Assembly (NCBI GenBank): GCA_030390025.1
Contig: CM059440.1
Coordinates: 44,640,001 to 44,704,000 of the forward strand
Source of the DNA: Squalus acanthias
Lineage: Eukaryota
Length of the DNA: 64,000 nt
Direction: 5' to 3'
Shown here one piece after another: positions 211-50,528 of this stretch. A program made the position numbers and the translations under genes. The first letter of the stretch is position 1, and the number at the start of each line of letters is the position of its first letter. The notes under the pieces were generated by a model. That model had not been told where the DNA came from, ran no database searches, and worked only from the letters and a program-made list of their open reading frames with translations.

Positions 211-2096
211 ATTTCAGAAATACCCAGAAGAAACACTCTGAGGCTTTCCTTTATGGTGCCATCCAACATAGGATTGACAAAGACATCGAATGGGATTGGT
301 GGCAGTGAACCTTACCTCAGTCCTAGAGAGAGGTTGCGAGAGTCTCTCATCCTTACACAAGGACTGGGACCTGCAGTACACATTCTGGATAAAATCTAAA
401 CATTGGCCTTGTACTCCCTTAGCTTTCAGCTTCGTGATGAGGGCCACATTTTTTTTTAATTAGTTCATGGGATGTGGGCGACACTGGCAGGGCCAGCATT
501 TATTGCCCATCCCTAATTGCCCTCAAGAAGGTGGTGGTGAGCTGCCTTCTTGAACTGCTGCAGCCCGTGTGGTGAAGGTACTCCCACAGTGCTGTTAGGG
601 AGGGAATTCCAGGATTTTGACCCAGCGACGATGAAGGAACGGCGATATATTTCCAAGTCAGGATGGAGTGTAACTTGGAGGGGAACCTGCAGGTGGTGGT
701 GCTCACATGCGCCTGCTGCTTTTGTCCTTCTAGGTGGTAGAGGTCATGGTTTTTGGAGGTGCTGCCGAAGAAGCCTTGGCAAGTTGCTGCAGTGCATCTT
801 GTAGATGGTACACACTGCAGCCACGGTACGCCGGTGGTGGAGGGAGTGAATGTTTAAGGTGGTGGATGGGGTGCCAATCAAGCGGGCTGCTTTGTCCTGG
901 ATGGTGTCGAACTTCTTGAGTGTTGTTGGAGCTGCACTCATCCAGGCAAGTGGCGAGTATTCCATCACACTCCTGACTTGTGCCTTGTAGATGGTGGAAA
1001 GGCTTTGGGGAGTCAGGAGGTGAGACACTCACCGCAGAATACCTAGCCTCTGACCTGCTCTTGTTGCCACGGTATTTATGTGGCTGGCCCAGTTAAATTC
1101 CTGGTCAATGGTGACCCCCCCCGGATGTTGAGAGTGGGGGATTCGGCGATGGTAATGCCGTTGAATGTCAAGGGGCGGTGGTTAGACTCTCGCTTGTTGG
1201 AGATAGTCATTGACTGGCACTTCTGTGGCATGAATGTTGCTTGTCACTTATCAGCCCAAGCCTGAAAGTCGTCCAGGTCTTGTTGCATGCGGGCATAGAC
1301 TGCTTCATTATCTGAGGAGTTGTGAATGGCACTGAACACTGTGCAGTCATCAGCGAACATCTCCACTTCTGACCTTATGATGCAGGGAAGGTCATTGATG
1401 AAGCAGCTGAAGATGGTTGGGCCTAGGACACTGCCCTGAGGAACCTTGCAGCGATGTCCTGGGGCTGTGATGATTGACCTCCAACCACCACAACTGTCTT
1501 CCTTTGTGCTAGGTATGACTCCAGCCAGTGAAAGAGTTTTCCCCCTGATTCCCATTGACTTCAGTTTTACTAGGGCTCTTTGATGCCACACTCGGTCAAG
1601 TGCTGCCTTGATGTTTACGGCAGTCACTCTCACCTCACCTCTGGAATTCAGCTCCTTTGTCCATGTTTGTACCAAGGCTGTAATGAGGTCAGGAGCCGAG
1701 TGGTCCTGGCGGAACCCAAACTGGGCATCAGTGAGCAGGTTATTGGTGAGTAAGTGCTGCTGATTGAGAGTAGACTGATGGGGCGGTAATTGGCCGGATT
1801 AGATTTGTCCTGCTTTTTGTGGACAGGACATACCTGGGCAGTTTTCCACATTGTCGGATAGATGCCAGTGTTGTAGCTGTACTGGAACAGCTTGGCTAGA
1901 GGCGCAGCTAGTCCTGGAGCAGAAGTCTTCAGTACGACAACCGGGATGTTGTCGGGGCCCATAGCCTTTGCTGTATCCAGTGCGCTCAGCCGTTCCTTGG
2001 AGTGAATCAAATTGGCTGAAGACTGGCTTCTGTGATGGTGGGGACCTCAGGAGGATGCCGAGAAGGATCATCCACACGACACTTCTGGCTGAAGAT

Positions 2097-3272
2097 TTCC
2101 AAAAGGCATTCGATAAGGTGCCACATAAAAGGTTATTACACAAGATTAGGGCTCATGGGGTTGGGGGTAATATAGTAGCATGGATAGAGGATTGGTTAAT
2201 GGACAGAAAACAGAGAGTAGGGATAAACGGATCTTTTTCAGGTTGGCAGGCTGTAACTAGTGGGGTGCCGCAAGGATCAGTGCTGGGGCCTCAGCTATTC
2301 ACAATCTATATTAATGACCTAGATGAAGTGACCGAGTGTAATGTATCCAAGTTTGCTGACAATACAAAGCTAGGTGGGACAGTAAGCTGTGAGGAGAACA
2401 CAAAGAGTCTGCAAAGGGATATAGATAGACTAAGTGAGTGGGCAGTAAGGTGGCAGATGGAGTATAATGTAGGGAAATGTGAGGTTATTCACTTTGGTAG
2501 GAAGAATAGAAAAACAGAATATTTTTTAAATGGTGAGAAACTTTCAAATGTTGGTGTTCAGAGAGATTTAGGTGTCCTCATGCAAGAAACACAGAAAGCT
2601 AGCATGCAGGTACAGCAAGCAATAAGGAAGGCAAATGACATGTTGGCCTTTACTGCAAGGGGGTTGGAGTGTAAGAGTAAGGAAGTCTTGCTACAATTGT
2701 ACAGGGCCTTGGTGAGACCACACCTGGGGTACTGTGCAGTTTGGTCTTATCTAAGGAAGATACACTTGCCTTGGAGGCGGTGCAACGAAGGTTCACTAGA
2801 TTGATTCCTGGGATGAGAGGGCTGTCCTATGATGAGAGATTGTGTAGAATGGACCTATACTCTCTGGAGTTTAGAAGAATGAGAGGTGATCTCATTGAAA
2901 CATACAAGATTCTGAAGGGGATTGACAGGGTAGATGCTGAGAGGTTGTTTCCCCTGGCTGGAGTGTCTAGAACTAGGGGGCATAGTCTCAGGATAAGGGG
3001 CAGGCCATTTAAGACTGAGATGAGGAGGAATTTCTTCACTCAGAGGGTGGTGAATCTTTGGAATTCTCTGCCCCAGAGGGCGGTGAATGCTGAGTCTTTG
3101 AGTATATTCAAGGCTGAGATCGATAGATTTTTGGACTCTAGGGGAATCAAGGGATATGGAGATCGGGCGGGAAAGTGGAGTTGAGGTCGATGATCAGCCA
3201 TGATCTTATTGAATGGCAGAGCAGGCTCGAGGGGCCGAATGGCCGACTCCTGCTCTTATTTCTTATGTTCAT
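2097..3272 (+). mobile_element. CR1 LINE 3' portion nested in LINE-B
   Basis: [36 protein letters not shown]; ttcttatgttc tail; aagat duplicated at 2092-2096 and 3273-3277. Confidence 0.95.
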
Positions 3273-4787
3273 AAGATGGTTGCAAACGCTTCAGCCTTGT
3301 CTTTTGCACTCACGTGCTGGGATCTGCCATCACTGAGGATGGGGATATTCATAGAGCCTCCTCCTCCCATTAGTTGTTTAATGGTCCACTACCATTCACA
3401 ACTGGATGTGGCAGGACTGCAGAGCTTTGATCTGATCCGTTGATTGTGGGATCGCTTAGCCCTGTCTATAGCATGCTGCTTCCGCTTTTTAGCATGCATG
3501 TAGTCCTGTGTTGCAGCTTCCCCAGGTTGGCATCTCATTTTTAGGTACGCGAGGTGCTGCTCCTGGCATGTTCTTCTGCACTCCTCATTGAACCAGGGTT
3601 GGTCCCCTGGCTTGATGGTAATGGTGGAGTGAGGGATATGCCGGGCCATGAGGTTACAGATTGTGGTGGAATACAATTCTGCTGCTGTTGATGGCCCACA
3701 GCGCTTCATGGATGCCCAGTTTTGAGCTGCTAGATCTCTTCTGAACCTATCCCATTTAGCACGGTGGTAGTGCCACACAACACGATGGAGGGTGTCCTCA
3801 GTGTGAAGATGGGACTTCGTCTCCACAATGATTGTGCGGTGGTCACTGCTACCAATACTGTCATGGAGAGATGCATCTGTGACATTTAGATTGGTGAGGA
3901 CGAGTTCAAGTAGGTTTTTCCCCTCGTGTTGGTTCTCTCACCACCTGTCACAGGCCCAGTCTGGCAGCTATGTCCTTCAGGACTCGGCCAGCTCGGTCAG
4001 TAGTGGTGCTATCAAGCCACTCTTAATGATAGACATTGAAGTCCCCCACCCAGAGTACCTTCTGTGCCCTTGCTACCCTCAGTGCTTCTTTCAAGTGGTG
4101 TTCAACATGGAGGAGTACTGATTCATCAGCTGAGGGAGGGCGGTAGGTGGTAATCAGCAGGAGGTTTCCTTGCCCATGCTTGACCTGAAGCCATGAGACT
4201 TCATGGGGTCTGGAGTCAATGTTGAGGACTCCCAGGGCCACTCCCTCCCGACTGTATACCACTGTGCCGCCACCCCTGGCGGGTCTGTCCTGCCGGTGGG
4301 ACAGGACATACCCAGGGATCGTGATGGAGGAGTCTGGGACATTGGCTGAAAGGTATGATTCTGTGAGTGTGAGTATGACTATGCCAGGCTATTGCTTGAC
4401 TGGTCTGTGGGACAGCTCTCCCAATTTTGGCACAAGTCCCCAGATGTTTGTGAGGAGGACTTTGCAGGATGGACTGGGCTGGGTATACCGTTGTCATGTC
4501 CCTAGCCGGTGCCGAGGTGGGTGGTCCATCCGGTTTTATTCTTATTGTTTTTCATCGCGGTTTGTTACAACTGAGTGGCTTGCTAGAGGGCAGTTAAGAG
4601 TCAACCACATTGCTGTGGGTCTGACGTCACATATAGGCCAGAACAGGCAAGGATGGCAAATTTCCTTCCCTAAAGGATTTTAGTGAACCAGATGGGTTTT
4701 TACGAGAATCCAGTAGTTTCATCGTCACCATTACTTACACTAGCTTTTTATTCCAGATTTATTTAATTAACTGAATTTAGCTGCCAT

Positions 4788-5776
4788 AGAGTCATAGAGA
4801 TATACAGCACAGAAAGAGGCCCTTCGGCCCATCGTGTCCGCTCCGGCCATCAAGCCCTGTCTATTCTAATCCCATTTTCCAGCACTTGGTCCGTAGCCTT
4901 GTATGCTATGGCGTTTCAATTGCTCATCTAAATGCTTCTTGAATGTTGTGAGGGTTCCTGCCTCTACCACCCTTTCAGGCAGTGAGTTCCAGATTCCAAC
5001 CACCCTCTGGGTGAAAAAGTTTTTCCTCAAATCCCCTCTAAACCTCCTGCCCCTTACCTTGAAACTATGCCCCCTGGTTATTGACCCCTCTACTAAGGGG
5101 AAAAGTTCCTTTCTATCTACCCTATCTATGCCCCTCATAATTTTGTACACCTCAATCAGGTCCCCCCTCAGCCTTCTCTGCTCTGAGGAAAACAACCCCA
5201 GCCTGTCCAGTCTCTCTTCATAGCTGAAGCGCTGCAGCCCAGGTAACATCCTGGTGAATCTCCTCTGCACCCTCTCCAATGCAATCACATCCTTCCTGTA
5301 GTGTGGCGACCAGAACTGCACACAGTATTCCAGCTGTGGCCTAACTAGCGTTTTGTACAGCTCCATCATAACCTCCCTGCTCTTATATTCTATGCCTCGG
5401 CTAATGAAGGCAAGTATCTCATATGCCTTTTTAACCACCTTATCTACCTGTCCTGCTGCCTTCAGGGATCTATGTACATGCACACCAAGGTCTCTCTGAT
5501 CCTCTGTCCTTCCTAGGGTCCTACCATTCATTGTGTATTCCCTTGCCTTGTTCGTCCTCCCAAAATGCATCACCTCACACTTTTCAGGGTTAAATTCCAT
5601 TTGCCACTGTTCTGCTCATCTAACCAACCCGTCTATATCGTCCTGTAGCCTGAGGCTTCCCTCCTCGCTATTTACCACTCCACCAATTTTCGTGTCATCT
5701 GCGAACTTACTGATCATACCTCCTACATTCATGTCTAAATCATTAATGTACACTACAAACAGCAAAGCACCCAGCA
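4788..5776 (-). mobile_element. CR1 LINE 3' portion nested in the LINE-B 5' head
   Basis: ORF 4866-5600 (LVRPQLEYCVQFWSP, RVVGIWNSLP); TSD tgccat at 4782-4787 and 5777-5782. Confidence 0.95.
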
Positions 5777-7699
5777 TGCCATGGGAGGATTTGAACTCAT
5801 GTCGCTGGATTATTAGTCCAGACCTCTAAATTACTAGTCCATTAACATAACCACGATGCTACCGTTCCAGTGAGGCACCATATCAAAAGGCTTATGAAAC
5901 CTGTGTGAGCCTCACACGATTCCTTGCTGATTGCTTGTGCAGGCCTTCAAAGCATCTGTTACACAAGCCATGACAACCCCCAAGAGCCAGCTTAAGAACC
6001 ATTAATATCAGTAAAATGCCACACACGCAGATTTTGAGACAGTTTGGGGGACAACTAAGTTGAAGTGCCAGAGGCAGTAAAAGCACTGATTTCCATCAGC
6101 AAATGGTGGCCAGGTAGACAGCGCTTGGGAAACACTGAATGCCAGCGTGAAACACTGATCATTGGCATGTATGAACTATGGGCCACTAGGGTACGGTCCT
6201 GAGGAATGCAAACTACCAGGCACGGGAATCGGCTGAAGATGCAAAGGGAAAAATTTGCTAGGTTTTCATCACGCAATGGATTAGAAAAGCAGACTTAAGT
6301 CACATTTCTGAATTAAATTGAATATCGTTGCTGTGGGTGGAGGAAGAGGCAAGACCAGCCTGAAAAACTGTTCCCAGGGAAGCAAGCCTGTTTCTGGATG
6401 CAGAGGCTGATCAAGCTGAGGAGGCAAAAATACAAGTGACATTATTTACACCAAGAGTGTGGCTGACTCTCGCTTAAAAAAAACCCAGTTAAATGCAGAA
6501 ACCTGGCTTTGTGTTTTGGATGCCCTCTGATTTCTCTGCTCTACTTTTTTCTATGTCCTTTGGTCCCTCAAATAGCGGCTCCAACACTGAGGCAAAACTG
6601 TGTCTATTTCCAACCCAGCACCAAATGCAGGGCCATAAATTAACTTCATTCCCAAGCGAGTCTTTTCTCGGGGCTCTGGAGGCAACAGAAAGACAGATTA
6701 GCATCTACACGGTGGTGTGGTATTGTAGTGATGAAGATTCTGGATGAGCAACCCACCACGGCAAGTGAATTCAATGAATGTGTGGGTTGGCACGAGAAAG
6801 AATTTCCATAAAATCCCAAGTGGTTCACTTCAGAGAACCGACCACCCCAGCTAGTCTGGCCCACACGTAACTCCATTCCCACACTACATGGGGGCAGAAC
6901 TTGGTCCTCGTTGTGCTCGTTTTACAGGGTGCGAAGAGGACCAATTTGGACATTACTGCCAAAACACTGCCCGTTCACTCTGAAAGCAAATTGTTGGCAA
7001 CGATCAAAATGTTTGCTCCATATCACAAGGTCCAATTTTCTTCATAGATGTCTGGAAAAAAATTAATTTAAAAAAAGTAATTAATTAATTTCTTCAAAAA
7101 AACAGCATAATACAGAAAAAGTATTCACAGCCTGGCCCGTCTCACAGTTCCTTAACATGGGCTTAGACAAAGAGGAGGCCTTGGTCTCCAGTCCGCCAAA
7201 TTCATGGGCACAAGTACCACCTCCTCCTGTGCTGGAATTGGTTGCAGGACCATTGTCGCTGTGTTCTCCAATCCCTCTTCATCCTCCCCATTGGCCCTGG
7301 GGCGAATTAACCATGCAGTGGTCACATCAAGTTAGGTTCATGGGCCCAGGAAAAAAAACCTGAGGCCTGGTAGCTTCAGCTCAGAATGAGGGGCCGGAAT
7401 CCGGTTGGGGAACACATTTAGAAAATAAACTCAATTCATTAATCAAAAGAACAAATTGAAAACTATTTTGATTTAAAAGATCATGTTGTAAAGCTTCCTT
7501 AAGTGCAGCTCGTACATACATGCACCGAGTTTGTATAATGGCCATGGTAATGGTGCTCAACGTGGCTCTGCATGGCTGATAGTGTTTGGGGCCTCGGACT
7601 CTCGGGTTATTGGCGAATTTCTCAACTACCTCAATGAGTGCCATGAATTGGCATCCAGAATCCTGACTGCTCACTCAAAACTCAAGCGGTTGGCAACTC

Positions 7700-20067: not shown

Positions 20068-21322
20068 AGAATCATAGAATGGTTACAGCACAGTAGAAGG
20101 CTATTCGGCCCGTCAAGCCCGTGCCGGCTCTCTGCAAGAGCACTTCAGCTAATCCCACTCCCCCGCCCTTTCCCCCGTAGCCCTGCAAAAAAAATTTCCT
20201 TCAGGATTTTTTTTCATTCGTTCATGGGATGTGGGCATCGCTGGCAAGGCCGGCATTTATTGCCCATCCCTAATTGCCCTTGAGAAGGTGGTGGTGAGCC
20301 GCCTCCTGGAACCGCTGCAGTCCATGTGGTGAAGGTGCTCCCACAGTGCTGTTAGGGAGGAAGTTCCAGGATTTTGACCCAGCAACGATGAAGGATCGGC
20401 GATATACTTCTAAGTCAGGATGGTGTGTGACTTGGAGAGGAACCTGCAGGTGGTGGTGCTCACATGTGCCTGCTGCCCTTGTCCTTCTAGGTGGTAGAGG
20501 TCACGGGTTTGGGAGGTGCTGCCGAAGAAGCCTTGGCGAGTTGCTGCAGTGCATCTTGTAGATGGTACACACTGCAGCCACTGTGCGCCGGTGGTGGAGG
20601 GAGTGAATGTTTAAGGTGGTGGATGTGGTGCCAATCAAGTGGGCTGCTTTGTCTTGGATGGTGTCGAGCTTCTTGAGTGTTGTTGGAGCTGCACTCATCC
20701 AGGCAAGTGGAGAGTATTCCATCACACTCCTGACTTGTGCCTTGTAGATGGTGGAAAGGCTTTGGGGAGTCAGGAGGTGAGACACTTGCCGCAGAATACC
20801 CAGCCTCTGACCCGCTTTTGTTGCCACAGTATTTATGTGGCTGGTCCAGTTAAGTTTCTGGTCAATGGTGACCCCCAGGATGTTGATGGTGGGGGATTCG
20901 GCGATGCTAATGCCATTGAATGTCAAGGGGCGGTGGTTAGACTCTCACTTGTTGGAGATAGTCATTGCCTGGCACTTCTGTGGCGCGAATGTTACCTGCC
21001 ACTTATCAGTCCAAGCCTGAATGTCGTCCTGGTCTTGCTGCATGCGGCCATGGAATGCTTCATTATCTGAGGAGTTGTGAATGGCACTGAACACTGTGCA
21101 GTCATCAGCGAACATCCCCATTTCTGACCTTATGATGGAGGGAAGGTCATATCCAATTCCCTTTTGAAAGCCGTGATTGAATCTGCCTCCGCCACCCTTT
21201 CAGGCAGTGCATTCCAGATCTTAACCACTCGCTGCGTAAAAAAGTTTTTCCTCACGTCGCCTTTGGTTCTTCTGCCAATCACCTTAAATCTGTGTCCTCT
21301 GGTTCTCGACCCTTCCGCCAGT
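20068..21322 (-). mobile_element. CR1 3' end split by a LINE-B insertion
   Basis: CR1 tail at 20068-20205 resumes at 21150-21322. Confidence 0.88.
20207..21150 (-). mobile_element. LINE-B 5'-truncated copy
   Basis: ORF 20501-20926 ILGVTIDQKLNW...VMEYSPLAW; highly similar to 449-1400. Confidence 0.95.
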
Positions 21323-35949: not shown

Positions 35950-36440
35950 AGATCATAGTCGTGGTTATATTATTGGACTAGTAATCCAGAGGCCTGGACT
36001 AATGATCCAGAGACACGAGTTCAAATCCCATCACAGCAGCTGGGGAATTTAAAATTCAGAATAAAAAGCTAGTATCAGTAATGGTGACCATGAAACTACC
36101 GGATTGTCGCAAAAACCCAACTGGTTCACTAATGTCCTTTAGGGAAGGAAATCTGCCGTCCTCACCCGGCCTGCCCTAATTTATCCTTATGTGGATCGGT
36201 GTCAAATTTTTTGTCTTGGGGCATTTTACAACGTTAAAGGCGCTTTATAAATACAAGTTGTTGTTGTTGTTATATGTGACTCCAGACCCACATGTGGTTG
36301 CCTCTTAACTGCCCTCCGAGATGGCCTAGCAAGACACTCAGTTGTATTCAAGAAGGTGGCTTCTTGAGGGCAATTAGGGATGGGCAATAAATGCTGGTCT
36401 TGCCGGCGACGCCCACATCCTGTGAATGAATAAAAGAAAA
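35950..36440 (+). mobile_element. tRNA-headed SINE = LINE-B 5' head/UTR fused to LINE-B 3' tail; contains a nested L2 tail (~36177-36270)
   Basis: B-box gagttcaaatcc 36017-36028; body matches reverse complement of 4567-4781 and 5783-5860; tail matches 449-555. Confidence 0.9.
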
Positions 36441-37194
36441 TGCAAAGTCAGTTAACAGGCAAATAGCAACGAACCATCAATAAGTTCAGACTGGATGAAG
36501 GTATTGTGGGAAGCAGGCAGACGTGCACAACTTAAAATCAAACTTTATTTTCACACTTCACTACACTGTAACTGTGCAGTAACTATAAAAACTACACACA
36601 CACAAATGTATATTCAGCTCCGAACACGCTCCAGGCTTAAGATGTATGAGTCATTACAGAAAATAGATAATGTTCTGCCCCCAAAAGATACCAGACAAAG
36701 CAGTGTCTTAAGGCACTTTAAACTGTAATAATATTTGCTTACAATTGGAGAAGGCACGCTATGTTCACAGCATATATTAGCTTGAGTATGTAACCATGGC
36801 AGCGTTCTGTAGCAGCAATAATAGATTTTTAGCTTCCCCATTGGCTTGTCCAGTGACCCATACAGAACAGGAACAATCCAGGTTTAATCTTCAGTTGGTG
36901 CTGATCTAGTTTACCTCAGCCATGATGGCCCTAGGGAAGCGACTGTTAGCCTCAGCGCCCCTAGGCCAGTGAGGATGAAAGAATAAGCCACGGGTTCTTG
37001 CTCATGATCGCTACCCAGTGTTGCCTGATGGATGGTGCTCGGTTTTGAATTAAACAACCTGCAAACACTGACTGTAAGGGCTCATGCATGAAGGATAGCC
37101 ACTTGGCCAGGATACCAGACTGGACAATGTTTGTGGAACTGTGATTCATCATGAGTCAGCACCTTCAGGACACAATGGGTAAAATTTGAGGGGG

Positions 37195-48272: not shown

Positions 48273-50528
48273 TGGCCCGTAATTTGCGCTCAGTAGCAAA
48301 GCAAAGGCGCTCGCCCCGAAGAAAGCTTCCCACAACAATCTTGCAACCTCTGTGGCGACAAGTTTGGCTTTTCCGACGTTCAGTGTCGTGTAATGGGGAA
48401 TCCCTAGCGCGAGCTGCTGTGACATCAACAAGCTGTCTGAGCAGCCAATCACAGTGCAGAATTCTCACAGTCCAGGAACCAGGAAGTGAAGAAACTCCTT
48501 CTATTCAGACTTTTTAAAAATGTTACAGAACAAAACAAAGATTGGGGCCCTCACTGGGGAAAAGGTAAATTTGAAATAAATATGAACAAACTTTTAAAAA
48601 ATACAATTTTTTTAAAGTTTCTTAACAATTGTAATTTTTATTAAAATGGAGAAATTTGACACTCCACAAAATTAAAATTCGTTGTTCAGGGCCATAACAA
48701 TTCTGATCCGTCAACACGCTGTTAAAACACCTAATCCAACAAGGTCTAACTTTTAAAGGGGTTTTTAAGAACTAGCCGCGCCTCTAGCCAAGCTGTTCCA
48801 GTATAGCTACAACACTGGCATCTATCCGACAATGTGGAAAACTGCCCAGGTATGTCCTGTCCACAAAAACAGGACAAATCCAACCTGGCCAATTACCGCC
48901 CCATCAGTCTACTCTCAATCAAAGTGATCAGCAAAGTGATGGAAGGTGTCATCGACAGTGTTATCAAGTGGCACTTACTCACCAATAACCTACTCACCAA
49001 TGCTTAGTTTGGGTTCCGCCAAGACCACTCAGCTCCAGACCTCATTACAGCCTTGGTCCAAACATAGACAAAGGAGCTGAATTCCAGAGGTGAGGTGAGA
49101 GTGACTGCTCTTGACATCAAGGCAGCATTTGACCGAGTGTGGCATCAAGGAGCCCTCATAAAACTGAAGTCAATGGGAATCAGGGGGAAAACGCTCCACT
49201 GGCTGGAGTCATACCTAGCACAAACAAAGATGGTTGTGCTGGTTGAAGGTCAATCATCACAGCCCCAGGACATCGCTGCAGGAGTTCCTCAGGGCAGTGT
49301 CCTAGGCCCAACCATCTTCAGCTGCTTCATCAATGACCTTCCCTCCAACACAAGGTCAGAAGTGGGGATGTTCGCTGATGACTGCACAGTATTCAGGTCC
49401 ATTTGCAATTCCTCAGATAATAAAGCAGTCCATGCCCGCATGCAGCAAGACCTGGATGACATTTAGGCTTGGGCTGATAAGTGGCAAGTAACATTCGCGC
49501 CACACGAGTGCCAGATAATGACTATCACCAACAAGCAAGAGTCTAATCACCGCCCTTTGACATTCAATGGCTTTACCATCGCCGAATCCCCCAACATCAA
49601 CATCCTGGGGGTCACCATTGACCAGAAACTTAACTGGACCAGCCACATAAATACCGTGGCAACAAGAGTAGGTCAGAGGCTGGGTATTCTGCAGCAAGTG
49701 TCTCACCTTCTGACTCCCCAAGACCTTTCCACCATCTACAAGGCACAAGTCAGGAGTGTGATGGAATACTCTCCACTTACCTGGATGAGTGCAGCTCCAA
49801 CAACACTCAAGAAGCTCGACACCATCCAGGACAAAGCAGCCCGCTTGATTAGCACCCCATCCACCACCTTAAACATTCACTCCCTCCACCACCGGTGTAC
49901 CGTGGCTGCAGTGTGTACCATCTACAAGATGCACTCCAGCAACTCACCAAGGCTTCTCCGACAACACCTCCCAAACCCGCGACCTTACCACCTAGAAGGA
50001 CAAGGGCAGCAGGCGTGTGGGAACACCACCACCTCCAATTTCCCCTCCAAGTTACACATCATCCTGACTTAGAAGTATATCGCCGTTCCTTCATCGTCGC
50101 TGGGTCAAAATCCTGGAACTCCCTCCCTAACAGCACTGTGGGAGCATCTTCACCACACGGACTGCAGTGGTTCAAGAAGGTGGCTCATCGCCACCTTCTC
50201 GAGGACAATTAGGGATGGACAATAAATGCTGGACTTGCCAGCAATGACCACATCCTATGAATGAATTAAAAAAAAGATATTACTGCGGAAATGTCGAAGT
50301 TTTCATCAGTTTCACTGATTTCCCTGATTGCCAGCTATGGTGGGTGGGGAGGGTGGGGGGGAAGCACAGCGCAGCCCAGGTTGGAGCAGTGAATGACTGA
50401 CCGCAACTTCAGGATTTCCGTGTTAGGATGCGCCTGCGCTACATCCTGAAGTTGCGGTCAGTTTCAAAGGGGTAATAACGGCGAATGCTGTTTGTTCGCT
50501 GTTATTACCCACCGCAAATTCCGGGCCA
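48273..50528. mobile_element. MITE split by a LINE-B insertion
   Basis: TIRs tggcccgtaatttgcg / cgcaaattccgggcca. Confidence 0.8.
48771..50275 (+). mobile_element. LINE-B 5'-truncated copy (RT and tail)
   Basis: [35 protein letters not shown]; premature stops. Confidence 0.95.

What the first reader, a model, noticed from the sequence alone, without database searches (positions are those of the whole stretch)
449..5868. ORF1-less LINE with a tRNA-derived (Pol III A/B-box) head
Seen: removing two CR1 inserts bounded by TSDs (aagat; tgccat) leaves one ~3.2-kb minus-strand element. It runs tRNA-like head (A-box tagcatcgtgg 5861-5851, B-box gagttcaaatc 5798-5788), ~300 nt of UTR, then directly APE endonuclease (NIWGL..ILTES..YRPP..GDFN), RT and 3' tail. 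There is no room for an ORF1. Established: CR1/L2-group LINEs normally use internal Pol II promoters and usually carry ORF1, while tRNA heads are the hallmark of SINEs. Inference: this may be an autonomous retroposon driven by a SINE-type Pol III promoter. I cannot tell whether the family is already catalogued.
Basis: partly seen in the sequence, partly recalled or inferred. Interest (0 to 1): 0.85.

Follow-up and report, generated by a model that had tools for sequence, protein, structure and literature searches.

The report
Protein-coding LINE with a tRNA head
This is a dead copy of an abundant 3.3-kb jumping gene from a shark-like genome that codes for its own copying enzyme, yet starts with a tRNA-derived head normally seen only on short non-coding repeats, lacks every stop signal of RNA polymerase III and has no normal start codon, so it was likely copied by polymerase III and likely translated in an unusual way.

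Summary
Confirmed, and it is a family, not a one-off chimera. Removing two CR1-type inserts leaves a 3,244-nt element: tRNA-Thr(AGT)-derived head, 235-nt body, one endonuclease-RT frame, hairpin/A tail. In three searches (88 loci, some shared), 47 copies reach the A box and 41 are 5'-truncated in register; none shows an ORF1 or another 5' end. The frame was under purifying selection (P 7e-6). The family majority has 0 Pol III terminator motifs on the sense strand and 21 on the antisense (P 0.02 to 0.0007); seven control LINE frames have 3.7-11 per kb. The first in-frame Met is residue 286, after the endonuclease. Of 58 head-bearing loci, 41 are SINEs that look like this LINE minus its middle. 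The body is not the Deu domain and the head is not SacSINE1's. Lacking ORF1 is known (ZfL2-2). A tRNA-headed coding LINE was not found in 10 paper searches; Repbase/Dfam could not be checked. Pol III transcription is inferred; there are no RNA data. The scan noted this family before on other copies in this genome.

The parts
5777..5868 (-). tRNA-Thr(AGT)-derived head; family 5' end at 5868
   Evidence: aligns to the host tRNA-Thr(AGT) gene, 0 of 1,000 shuffles reach the score; same start in other copies
5851..5861 (-). A box (one mismatch to the family majority in this copy)
   Evidence: box consensus recalled
5805..5842 (-). two tandem anticodon-arm-like stem-loops (5842-5826 with a Thr AGT loop; 5821-5805 a duplicate); older family members have one arm
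5788..5798 (-). B box
   Evidence: box consensus recalled
4788..5776 (-). later insertion 1: 5'-truncated CR1-type LINE, young family (98-99% identical copies), 6-nt target duplication
   Evidence: CR1 label recalled
4566..4781 (-). non-coding body shared with the derived SINEs; not the Deu domain; origin unknown
4449..4564 (-). basic N-terminal extension of the coding frame (41 codons), starting after an in-frame stop, with no ATG
   Evidence: similar basic extension in homologues; 5 of 6 old-versus-young changes synonymous
3829..4460 (-). APE-type endonuclease
   Evidence: Pfam PF03372/PF14529; landmarks
2097..3272 (+). later insertion 2: 5'-truncated CR1-type LINE, opposite strand, 5-nt target duplication
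   Evidence: CR1 label recalled
1123..1893 (-). reverse transcriptase (approximate bounds)
   Evidence: Pfam PF00078
449..515 (-). stop codon, short 3' UTR with a long hairpin and AATAAA (504-499), short A tail
35959..36442 (+). SINE form of the same family: head and body joined to the LINE's last ~100 nt (with an unrelated insert at about 36179-36270)
48768..50282 (+). second, 5'-truncated copy of the LINE
20207..21150 (-). third, 5'-truncated copy of the LINE

Best explanation
The element is a high-copy, single-frame LINE whose 5' end is a tRNA-Thr-derived head, and its one RNA was likely made by RNA polymerase III from the internal A and B boxes, likely translated without an AUG start, and then likely copied back into the genome by its own endonuclease-RT. 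Shown: the anatomy, the shared 5' end, selection on the frame, no terminator motif on the sense strand, no in-frame ATG before residue 286, and SINEs with the LINE's two ends. Inferred: Pol III reads the whole 3.3 kb because T runs were purged. The ribosome starts somewhere in the first 41 codons at a non-AUG codon (re-initiation after one of the short upstream ORFs is the simplest route). The protein binds the 3' hairpin and primes reverse transcription at a nick, as for stringent L2 elements. SINE subfamilies arose repeatedly by internal deletion, which needs no new promoter here. The head probably replaced the ancestral 5' UTR and its AUG by a template switch before several cartilaginous-fish lineages split.
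For: (1) 5' ends: 24 of 29, 18 of 29 and 5 of 30 other copies reach the A box in three searches, the last seeded with a foreign endonuclease protein; all others stop in register; none of 31 truncated copies shares an in-register alternative 5' flank. (2) The column majority of 35 copies is 3.3 kb with one stop-free frame of 972 codons. Changes shared by 5 or more copies are 32 synonymous to 24 non-synonymous, against 375 to 975 for private non-CpG changes, P 7e-6; older versus younger copies 17 to 10, P 3e-4. (3) TTTT or TVTTT (terminators as defined in PMC8466645, passages): 0 sense, 21 antisense. For the frame, P 0.019 (synonymous permutation), 0.002 (base shuffle), 0.0007 (third-base resampling). 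Two CR1 frames from the same genome have 7.3-7.7 per kb, five metagenome LINE frames 3.7-11.4 per kb. TTT observed/expected 0.28; Phe 1.9% against 2.9-4.2% in 16 of 16 homologues. (4) First in-frame Met is residue 286; an in-frame TAA precedes the frame in 31 of 35 copies; 8 of 9 close homologues have a Met at or before the first endonuclease strand. (5) 41 of 58 head-bearing loci are head and body joined to the LINE 3' end; 40 of 41 resume inside the coding frame and 19 of 41 keep the first bases of the frame. (6) Older copies (78-88% to the majority) have the same layout, some with a one-arm head. Contigs from two other coded organisms bridge the body-to-frame junction. (7) Pol III transcripts retrotranspose without ORF1p (PMC2666806, abstract).
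Against: No RNA evidence of any kind. TTTT alone is not significant against synonymous permutation (0 versus 1.9, P 0.12); the low T content (19%) explains part of the effect, and the nulls were chosen after the absence was seen. C-type runs are also somewhat depleted (18 versus 27.7). About 12 of 30 older one-arm heads (counted by eye) and 3 of 15 older LINE copies carry four or more T just behind the head. No conserved start codon candidate exists: ACG at codon 4 is in 21 of 35 young copies but reads ACA in older ones, where the upstream TAA is mostly TAT. The leader folds no better than shuffles (z -0.5). Pol III RNAs are uncapped (established knowledge), and SINE-type elements are short, which PMC10886601 ascribes to weak processivity (passage). 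No intact copy was found (longest true frame 789 codons among 10 picked). No named L2 element could be used as a T-run control.
Confidence: 0.55

Rival explanations
1. Split labour: Pol III makes the template RNA from the head, but the protein comes from capped Pol II transcripts of some copies (read-through or spliced to a host exon that supplies an AUG) and acts on family RNAs through the 3' hairpin.
For: Explains head, terminator purge and missing AUG together without cap-independent initiation. Fragments of the frame occur inside elasmobranch gene models. Stringent LINE proteins recognise the 3' stem-loop and can act in trans (PMC4176376, passages).
Against: Purifying selection along the master lineage is easiest to keep when each RNA uses its own protein. 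The frame-0 extension is conserved upstream of any obvious splice acceptor (acceptor judged by eye).
Confidence: 0.2
2. The head is a captured relic, or serves as a Pol II promoter or RNA element; the element is an ordinary Pol II LINE with non-AUG or leaky initiation, and its T-poor strand has another cause.
For: All characterised LINEs are described as Pol II products (PMC10886601, PMC5786205). AATAAA lies about 50 nt before the A tail. T runs follow some older heads. TTTT alone gives P 0.12.
Against: Seven control frames, including the nearest headless relative, keep 3.7-11 terminator motifs per kb. Both boxes are kept in old and young subfamilies. A capped mRNA would meet eight upstream AUGs, none of which opens the frame.
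Confidence: 0.2
3. One-off SINE-LINE chimera, or a non-autonomous long SINE carried by another LINE.
For: SINEs with the same head are common in the genome.
Against: The same junction occurs in every copy that reaches it, across three searches; the frame is under purifying selection; a search with a foreign endonuclease returned only this family in 30 of 30 fetched loci.
Confidence: 0.03

Closest known systems
Single-ORF stringent L2-clade LINEs (zebrafish ZfL2-2; PMC4423928 and PMC4176376, passages)
   Same: One EN-RT frame, no ORF1, 3' stem-loop.
   Different: No tRNA head is described for them in the passages read; the element here has one, lacks an AUG before the endonuclease and lacks T runs. 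Clade identity was not tested against ZfL2-2.
Bipartite-LINE-derived SINEs: Bov-B/Bov-A/Bov-tA, Vingi-2_ACar/SINE2-1_ACar, CoeSINE4 (PMC5786205 parts 2-4; PMC4494074 passages)
   Same: SINEs made of a LINE's 5' and 3' parts with a tRNA head.
   Different: There the head is added after the deletion and only RTE and Vingi clades contribute; here the head is already on the coding LINE, so one deletion gives a SINE.
RTE-1_DAn and relatives (one sentence in PMC5786205)
   Same: A LINE reported to hold a tRNA-like sequence.
   Different: RTE clade, Drosophila; position and function of that sequence are not given, and no other held paper matched the search. The nearest precedent, unresolved.
SacSINE1 / Deu-SINEs with the L2-2_CM tail (PMC5499810 parts 1-3)
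   Same: tRNA-headed SINE of cartilaginous fish with a LINE-type tail.
   Different: Tested and different: Deu core motifs are absent, the genome's own Deu-type SINE is a separate family, and the published SacSINE1 head differs.
Cassandra, Helenus, Ajax (TRIMp3; PMC10886601 passages)
   Same: Retrotransposons other than SINEs that carry a Pol III promoter from a small RNA gene.
   Different: They are short, non-coding LTR elements; this one is 3.3 kb, non-LTR and coding.
Unnamed single-frame LINEs from metagenomes, and a Branchiostoma belcheri protein (P0001-P0020, L171, L174)
   Same: 40-46% identical RT region; sister group in a quick tree (SH-aLRT 92); similar basic N-terminal extension.
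   Different: The two loci with upstream DNA have their own leader of about 200-270 nt, no match to the head or body, no B box, an in-frame ATG and ordinary T runs.

Membership tests
APE-type non-LTR retrotransposon (LINE) | APE endonuclease and RT in one frame | tested here: met
   Pfam; 972-codon frame
APE-type non-LTR retrotransposon (LINE) | Fixed 3' end with tail, variable 5' truncation | tested here: met
APE-type non-LTR retrotransposon (LINE) | Target-site duplications | tested here: inconclusive
   no consistent duplication in 27 copies examined
APE-type non-LTR retrotransposon (LINE) | Pol II transcript with an AUG-initiated or ORF1-coupled frame | tested here: inconclusive
   no ORF1 and no in-frame ATG before residue 286; polymerase not testable here
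CR1 clade proper | RT groups with CR1 elements | tested here: not met
   the genome's own CR1-type frame lies outside the group on a long branch in a quick tree; its CR1 label is recalled
L2 / Crack / Daphne clades | RT groups with named reference elements | not testable with these tools
   no Repbase or Dfam references available
SINE2 (tRNA-derived SINE) | tRNA-derived head with A and B boxes at the 5' end | tested here: met
SINE2 (tRNA-derived SINE) | Short and non-coding | tested here: not met
   3.3 kb, frame under purifying selection; met only by the deleted derivatives
SINE2 (tRNA-derived SINE) | Transcribed by Pol III | not testable with these tools
   no run on record as RNA; indirect support only
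Deu-SINEs / SacSINE1 | Deu domain in the body | tested here: not met
   0 of 3 core motifs from the PMC5786205 supplement in the family; alignment to 8 host Deu-type loci not above shuffles, P 0.115-0.865
Deu-SINEs / SacSINE1 | SacSINE1 head sequence | tested here: not met
   published positions 2-78 differ, compared by eye
CORE-SINEs | Conserved CCTTGGG motif | tested here: not met
   absent from the first 340 nt (motif from PMC5786205); a loose look-alike near family nt 211-222 was not scored
V-SINEs (HE1) | V domain and CR1-type (HER1) tail | not tested
   no reference sequence at hand; by recall alone the body does not look like the V domain
Bipartite LINE-derived SINEs | 5' and 3' parts both match one LINE | tested here: met
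   41 of 58 head-bearing loci

The most novel reading that the evidence does not exclude
An autonomous, protein-coding retrotransposon transcribed by RNA polymerase III: one uncapped 3.3-kb RNA serves as mRNA for a 970-residue endonuclease-RT started without AUG and as its template, and it spawns SINE families by simple internal deletion. It would be LINE and SINE in one, kept through successive subfamilies in cartilaginous fish.
Probability: 0.5. Interest if true: 0.93.

Novelty: new variant of a known kind. Interest (0 to 1): 0.8.

Why it matters
The working definition in the papers read is that LINEs are Pol II products and SINEs Pol III products (PMC10886601, PMC4494074). A coding LINE run from a tRNA promoter would break that split, give a natural case of a long Pol III RNA translated without cap or AUG, and show a one-step route to new SINEs. 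PMC5786205 notes that no LINE sequence like a conserved SINE body had been found outside RTE and Vingi leaders; here a whole SINE head and body sit on the partner LINE. The leader is short, so both claims can be tested with simple reporter assays.

Tried and rejected
Deu/SacSINE1 identity: my first reading from recall, rejected. ARAGORN and Rfam: no tRNA call on the head. Expression: no RNA holder listed among 24 runs; contigs cannot show start or strand. DNA context of the 59 protein homologues: the look-up tool for encoding contigs was closed, so the 5' ends of P0001-P0061, including the Branchiostoma element, were not seen; only 22 metagenome loci were, two of them close relatives with usable upstream DNA. 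A second homologue search with the endonuclease gave 2 unnamed proteins. Intact copies: none among 40 fetched or 10 picked for long frames; the 1,004- and 875-aa 'open frames' listed were 789 and 661 codons when read. Target duplications: none consistent. IRES-like structure: leader not more stable than shuffles. A conserved near-cognate start or a frameshift from the 75-codon +1 upstream ORF: neither is conserved in older copies. Shared flanks of L215, L231, L032: out of register and antisense CR1-like sequence, not an alternative 5' end. T run before the A tail (T1 24, T2 3, T3 2, T4 4, T5 2, T6 1, T10 1; 43 of 80 motif hits unclassified or unrelated): resembles T+ SINE ends, but such runs also grow with age (PMC8466645), so not counted. 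The careful tree did not finish; a quick tree was used. Literature: 10 searches found no description of this element. Nishihara 2006 was not retrieved; the supplement of PMC5499810 and file 1 of the PMC4824008 supplement could not be read and may hold named consensus sequences that match the SINE.
Full report
Observation. The minus strand from 5868 to 449 reads: head, CR1-type insert, body, endonuclease, second CR1-type insert on the other strand, RT, tail. Without the inserts the element is 3,244 nt. The genome is 3.7 Gb. Pieces of the frame match gene models of Heterodontus, Heptranchias, Cetorhinus and Mobula at 57-83% identity, so the host is likely a shark.

It is a family. A query of body plus endonuclease gave 7,984 first-look candidates, 40 scored; an endonuclease-only DNA query gave 1,890; a foreign endonuclease protein gave 150 scored hits. 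These are not copy numbers. I fetched the best 29, 29 and 30 other loci; a few are shared between sets and two look like duplicates. The 5' ends fall at or before the A box in 24, 18 and 5; inside the head in 4, 1 and 5; in the body in 1, 5 and 12; and in the first codons of the frame in 0, 5 and 8. The first set favours long copies by construction; the third does not, and all 30 of its loci belong to this family (93-97% to the majority). Among the 31 copies that stop short of the head, 13 pairs share some flank sequence, none in register. The only long one is antisense CR1-like DNA into which the copies inserted. No ORF1 and no second kind of 5' end appeared.

The head. It aligns to this genome's tRNA-Thr(AGT) gene (found, confirmed by ARAGORN) with score 56.5 against 31 +/- 4. 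It keeps the A box, a perfect anticodon stem-loop and the B box. In the young subfamily the anticodon arm is duplicated, which may be why ARAGORN and Rfam miss it. Older members have one arm.

The frame. From 40 copies fetched at length I aligned 35; five with large rearrangements or inserts were left out. The column majority has one stop-free frame of 972 codons from nt 334; copies differ from it by 3.2-6.5%. No intact copy was found. Shared variants are enriched for synonymous changes (32:24 versus 375:975 private, P 7e-6; older versus younger 17:10, P 3e-4, where CpG sites were not removed). So the lineage that carried the head needed its protein. The first in-frame Met is residue 286, while the endonuclease spans about 38-245. 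An in-frame stop precedes the frame in 31 of 35 copies. The leader has eight ATGs; six are in frame but all are closed by stops, and one opens a 75-codon +1 frame overlapping the start. The 41 codons before the endonuclease are basic, resemble the N-terminal extension of homologues and change mostly synonymously (5 of 6), so they are probably translated. No start candidate is conserved between old and young copies, and the leader is not unusually structured. How translation starts is the weakest step of the model.

Terminators. The joined window copy and the majority have no run of four T on the sense strand. Using TTTT and TVTTT, the shortest terminators tested in PMC8466645 (passages), the whole element has 0 on the sense strand and 21 on the antisense. 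For the frame the three nulls give P 0.019, 0.002 and 0.0007. Controls run at 7.3-7.7 per kb (two CR1-type frames of this genome) and 3.7-11.4 per kb (five metagenome LINE frames, the nearest relative lowest). Phe is 1.9% against 2.9-4.2% in 16 homologues. Against this: TTTT alone gives P 0.12, the strand is T-poor, the nulls were chosen after seeing the absence, C-type runs are also somewhat low, and about 12 of 30 older heads carry T4-T5 behind the head (by eye). The young copies hold 20 T4 runs in 107,716 nt and the older ones 11 in 16,943 nt, scattered as expected from decay.

SINEs. A SINE with the same head, body and tail lies at 35959-36442. Two head-based searches gave 58 other loci: 41 join the body to the LINE's 3' end, 9 run on into the frame, 8 are unclear. 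Junctions vary and some recur (332 to 3211 four times; 350 to 3171-3174 three times; BLAST ends are approximate). 19 of 41 keep the first bases of the frame and 40 of 41 resume inside it. That points to repeated internal deletion of the headed LINE, in both an older and a younger generation. Older LINE copies at 78-88% have the same layout.

What the SINE is not. I first took the body for the Deu domain of SacSINE1, from recall. The Deu alignment in the supplement of PMC5786205 shows other motifs. They are absent from this family and mark a separate SINE in nine fetched loci; eight were aligned to the body and none scored above shuffles. The published SacSINE1 head also differs. Three earlier notes of this scan that name Deu/SacSINE1 as closest are therefore not supported on that point. 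I could not assign the SINE to a named family.

Other organisms. Runs of at least nine coded organisms hold the sequence. Four were laid: each covers 30 of 30 bins at 80% likeness; of 32 pieces shown, one in run X10 and one in run X5 bridge the body-to-frame junction; joints matching the SINE form appear in three runs. None is on record as RNA, so they say nothing on expression. The nearest outside relatives are 40-46% identical. Two metagenome loci with upstream DNA have a different short leader, an in-frame ATG and ordinary T runs. On two loci only, the head looks like a later replacement of the ancestral leader.

Literature. Read: PMC5499810 parts 1-3 of 6; PMC5786205 parts 2-4 of 5 and supplement passages; PMC7245038 part 1 of 4 and a supplement search; passages of PMC10886601, PMC3747384, PMC4824008 (plus a supplement search), PMC4176376, PMC4494074, PMC8466645, PMC4423928, PMC2746220; the abstract of PMC2666806; a supplement search of PMC5804259. 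Single-ORF L2 elements are known. LINEs are stated to be Pol II and SINEs Pol III products. [quoted passage not shown] Ten searches found no account of this element. Repbase, Dfam and subscription journals were out of reach, so it may be catalogued.

Verdict. Real, a family, autonomous in its day, with a tRNA head as its true 5' end. Pol III transcription in some role is likely (about 0.75, adding the first rival); that one Pol III RNA was both message and template is my best single model (0.55). New variant of a known kind on present evidence; categorically new if the polymerase is confirmed. Interest 0.8. The scan recorded the same family from other copies in this genome; those notes are not independent support.

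Noticed in passing
L171:440-709 and L174:350-561: The two closest metagenome relatives share a conserved leader of about 200-270 nt upstream of their single frame, with no B box; it could be an internal promoter or a structured RNA of this LINE clade.
   Followed up: no
window 4788-5776; L152-L170: The CR1-type family of insert 1 is young (copies 98-99% identical) with long open frames, and has more T4 runs than synonymous permutation predicts.
   Followed up: partly
L036, L043, L068, L193, L257, L004, L010, L154: A separate Deu-type SINE with an L2-type tail (SacSINE1-like by the published motifs) is common in this genome.
   Followed up: partly
G000 C4:30111204 and C6:25311647 (L205, L206): Two identical tRNA-Thr(AGT) genes, the likely source class of the head.
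   Followed up: yes
L253:1731-2066 and L256:1857 (positions in the element's orientation): Young LINE copies sit inside older SINEs of the same family; whether the family prefers its own copies as targets was not tested.
   Followed up: no
window 36179-36270: About 90 nt of unrelated sequence, with a TTG repeat, interrupts the SINE copy.
   Followed up: no
proteins P0044, P0045, P0051, P0055, P0056: Pieces of this RT frame are built into annotated gene models of four sharks and a ray, as exonised repeats or annotation errors.
   Followed up: no
3' ends of family copies: AATAAA about 50 nt before the end and a T run of variable length (1-10) just before the A tail, like T+ SINEs, which PMC8466645 reports only from mammals.
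   Followed up: partly
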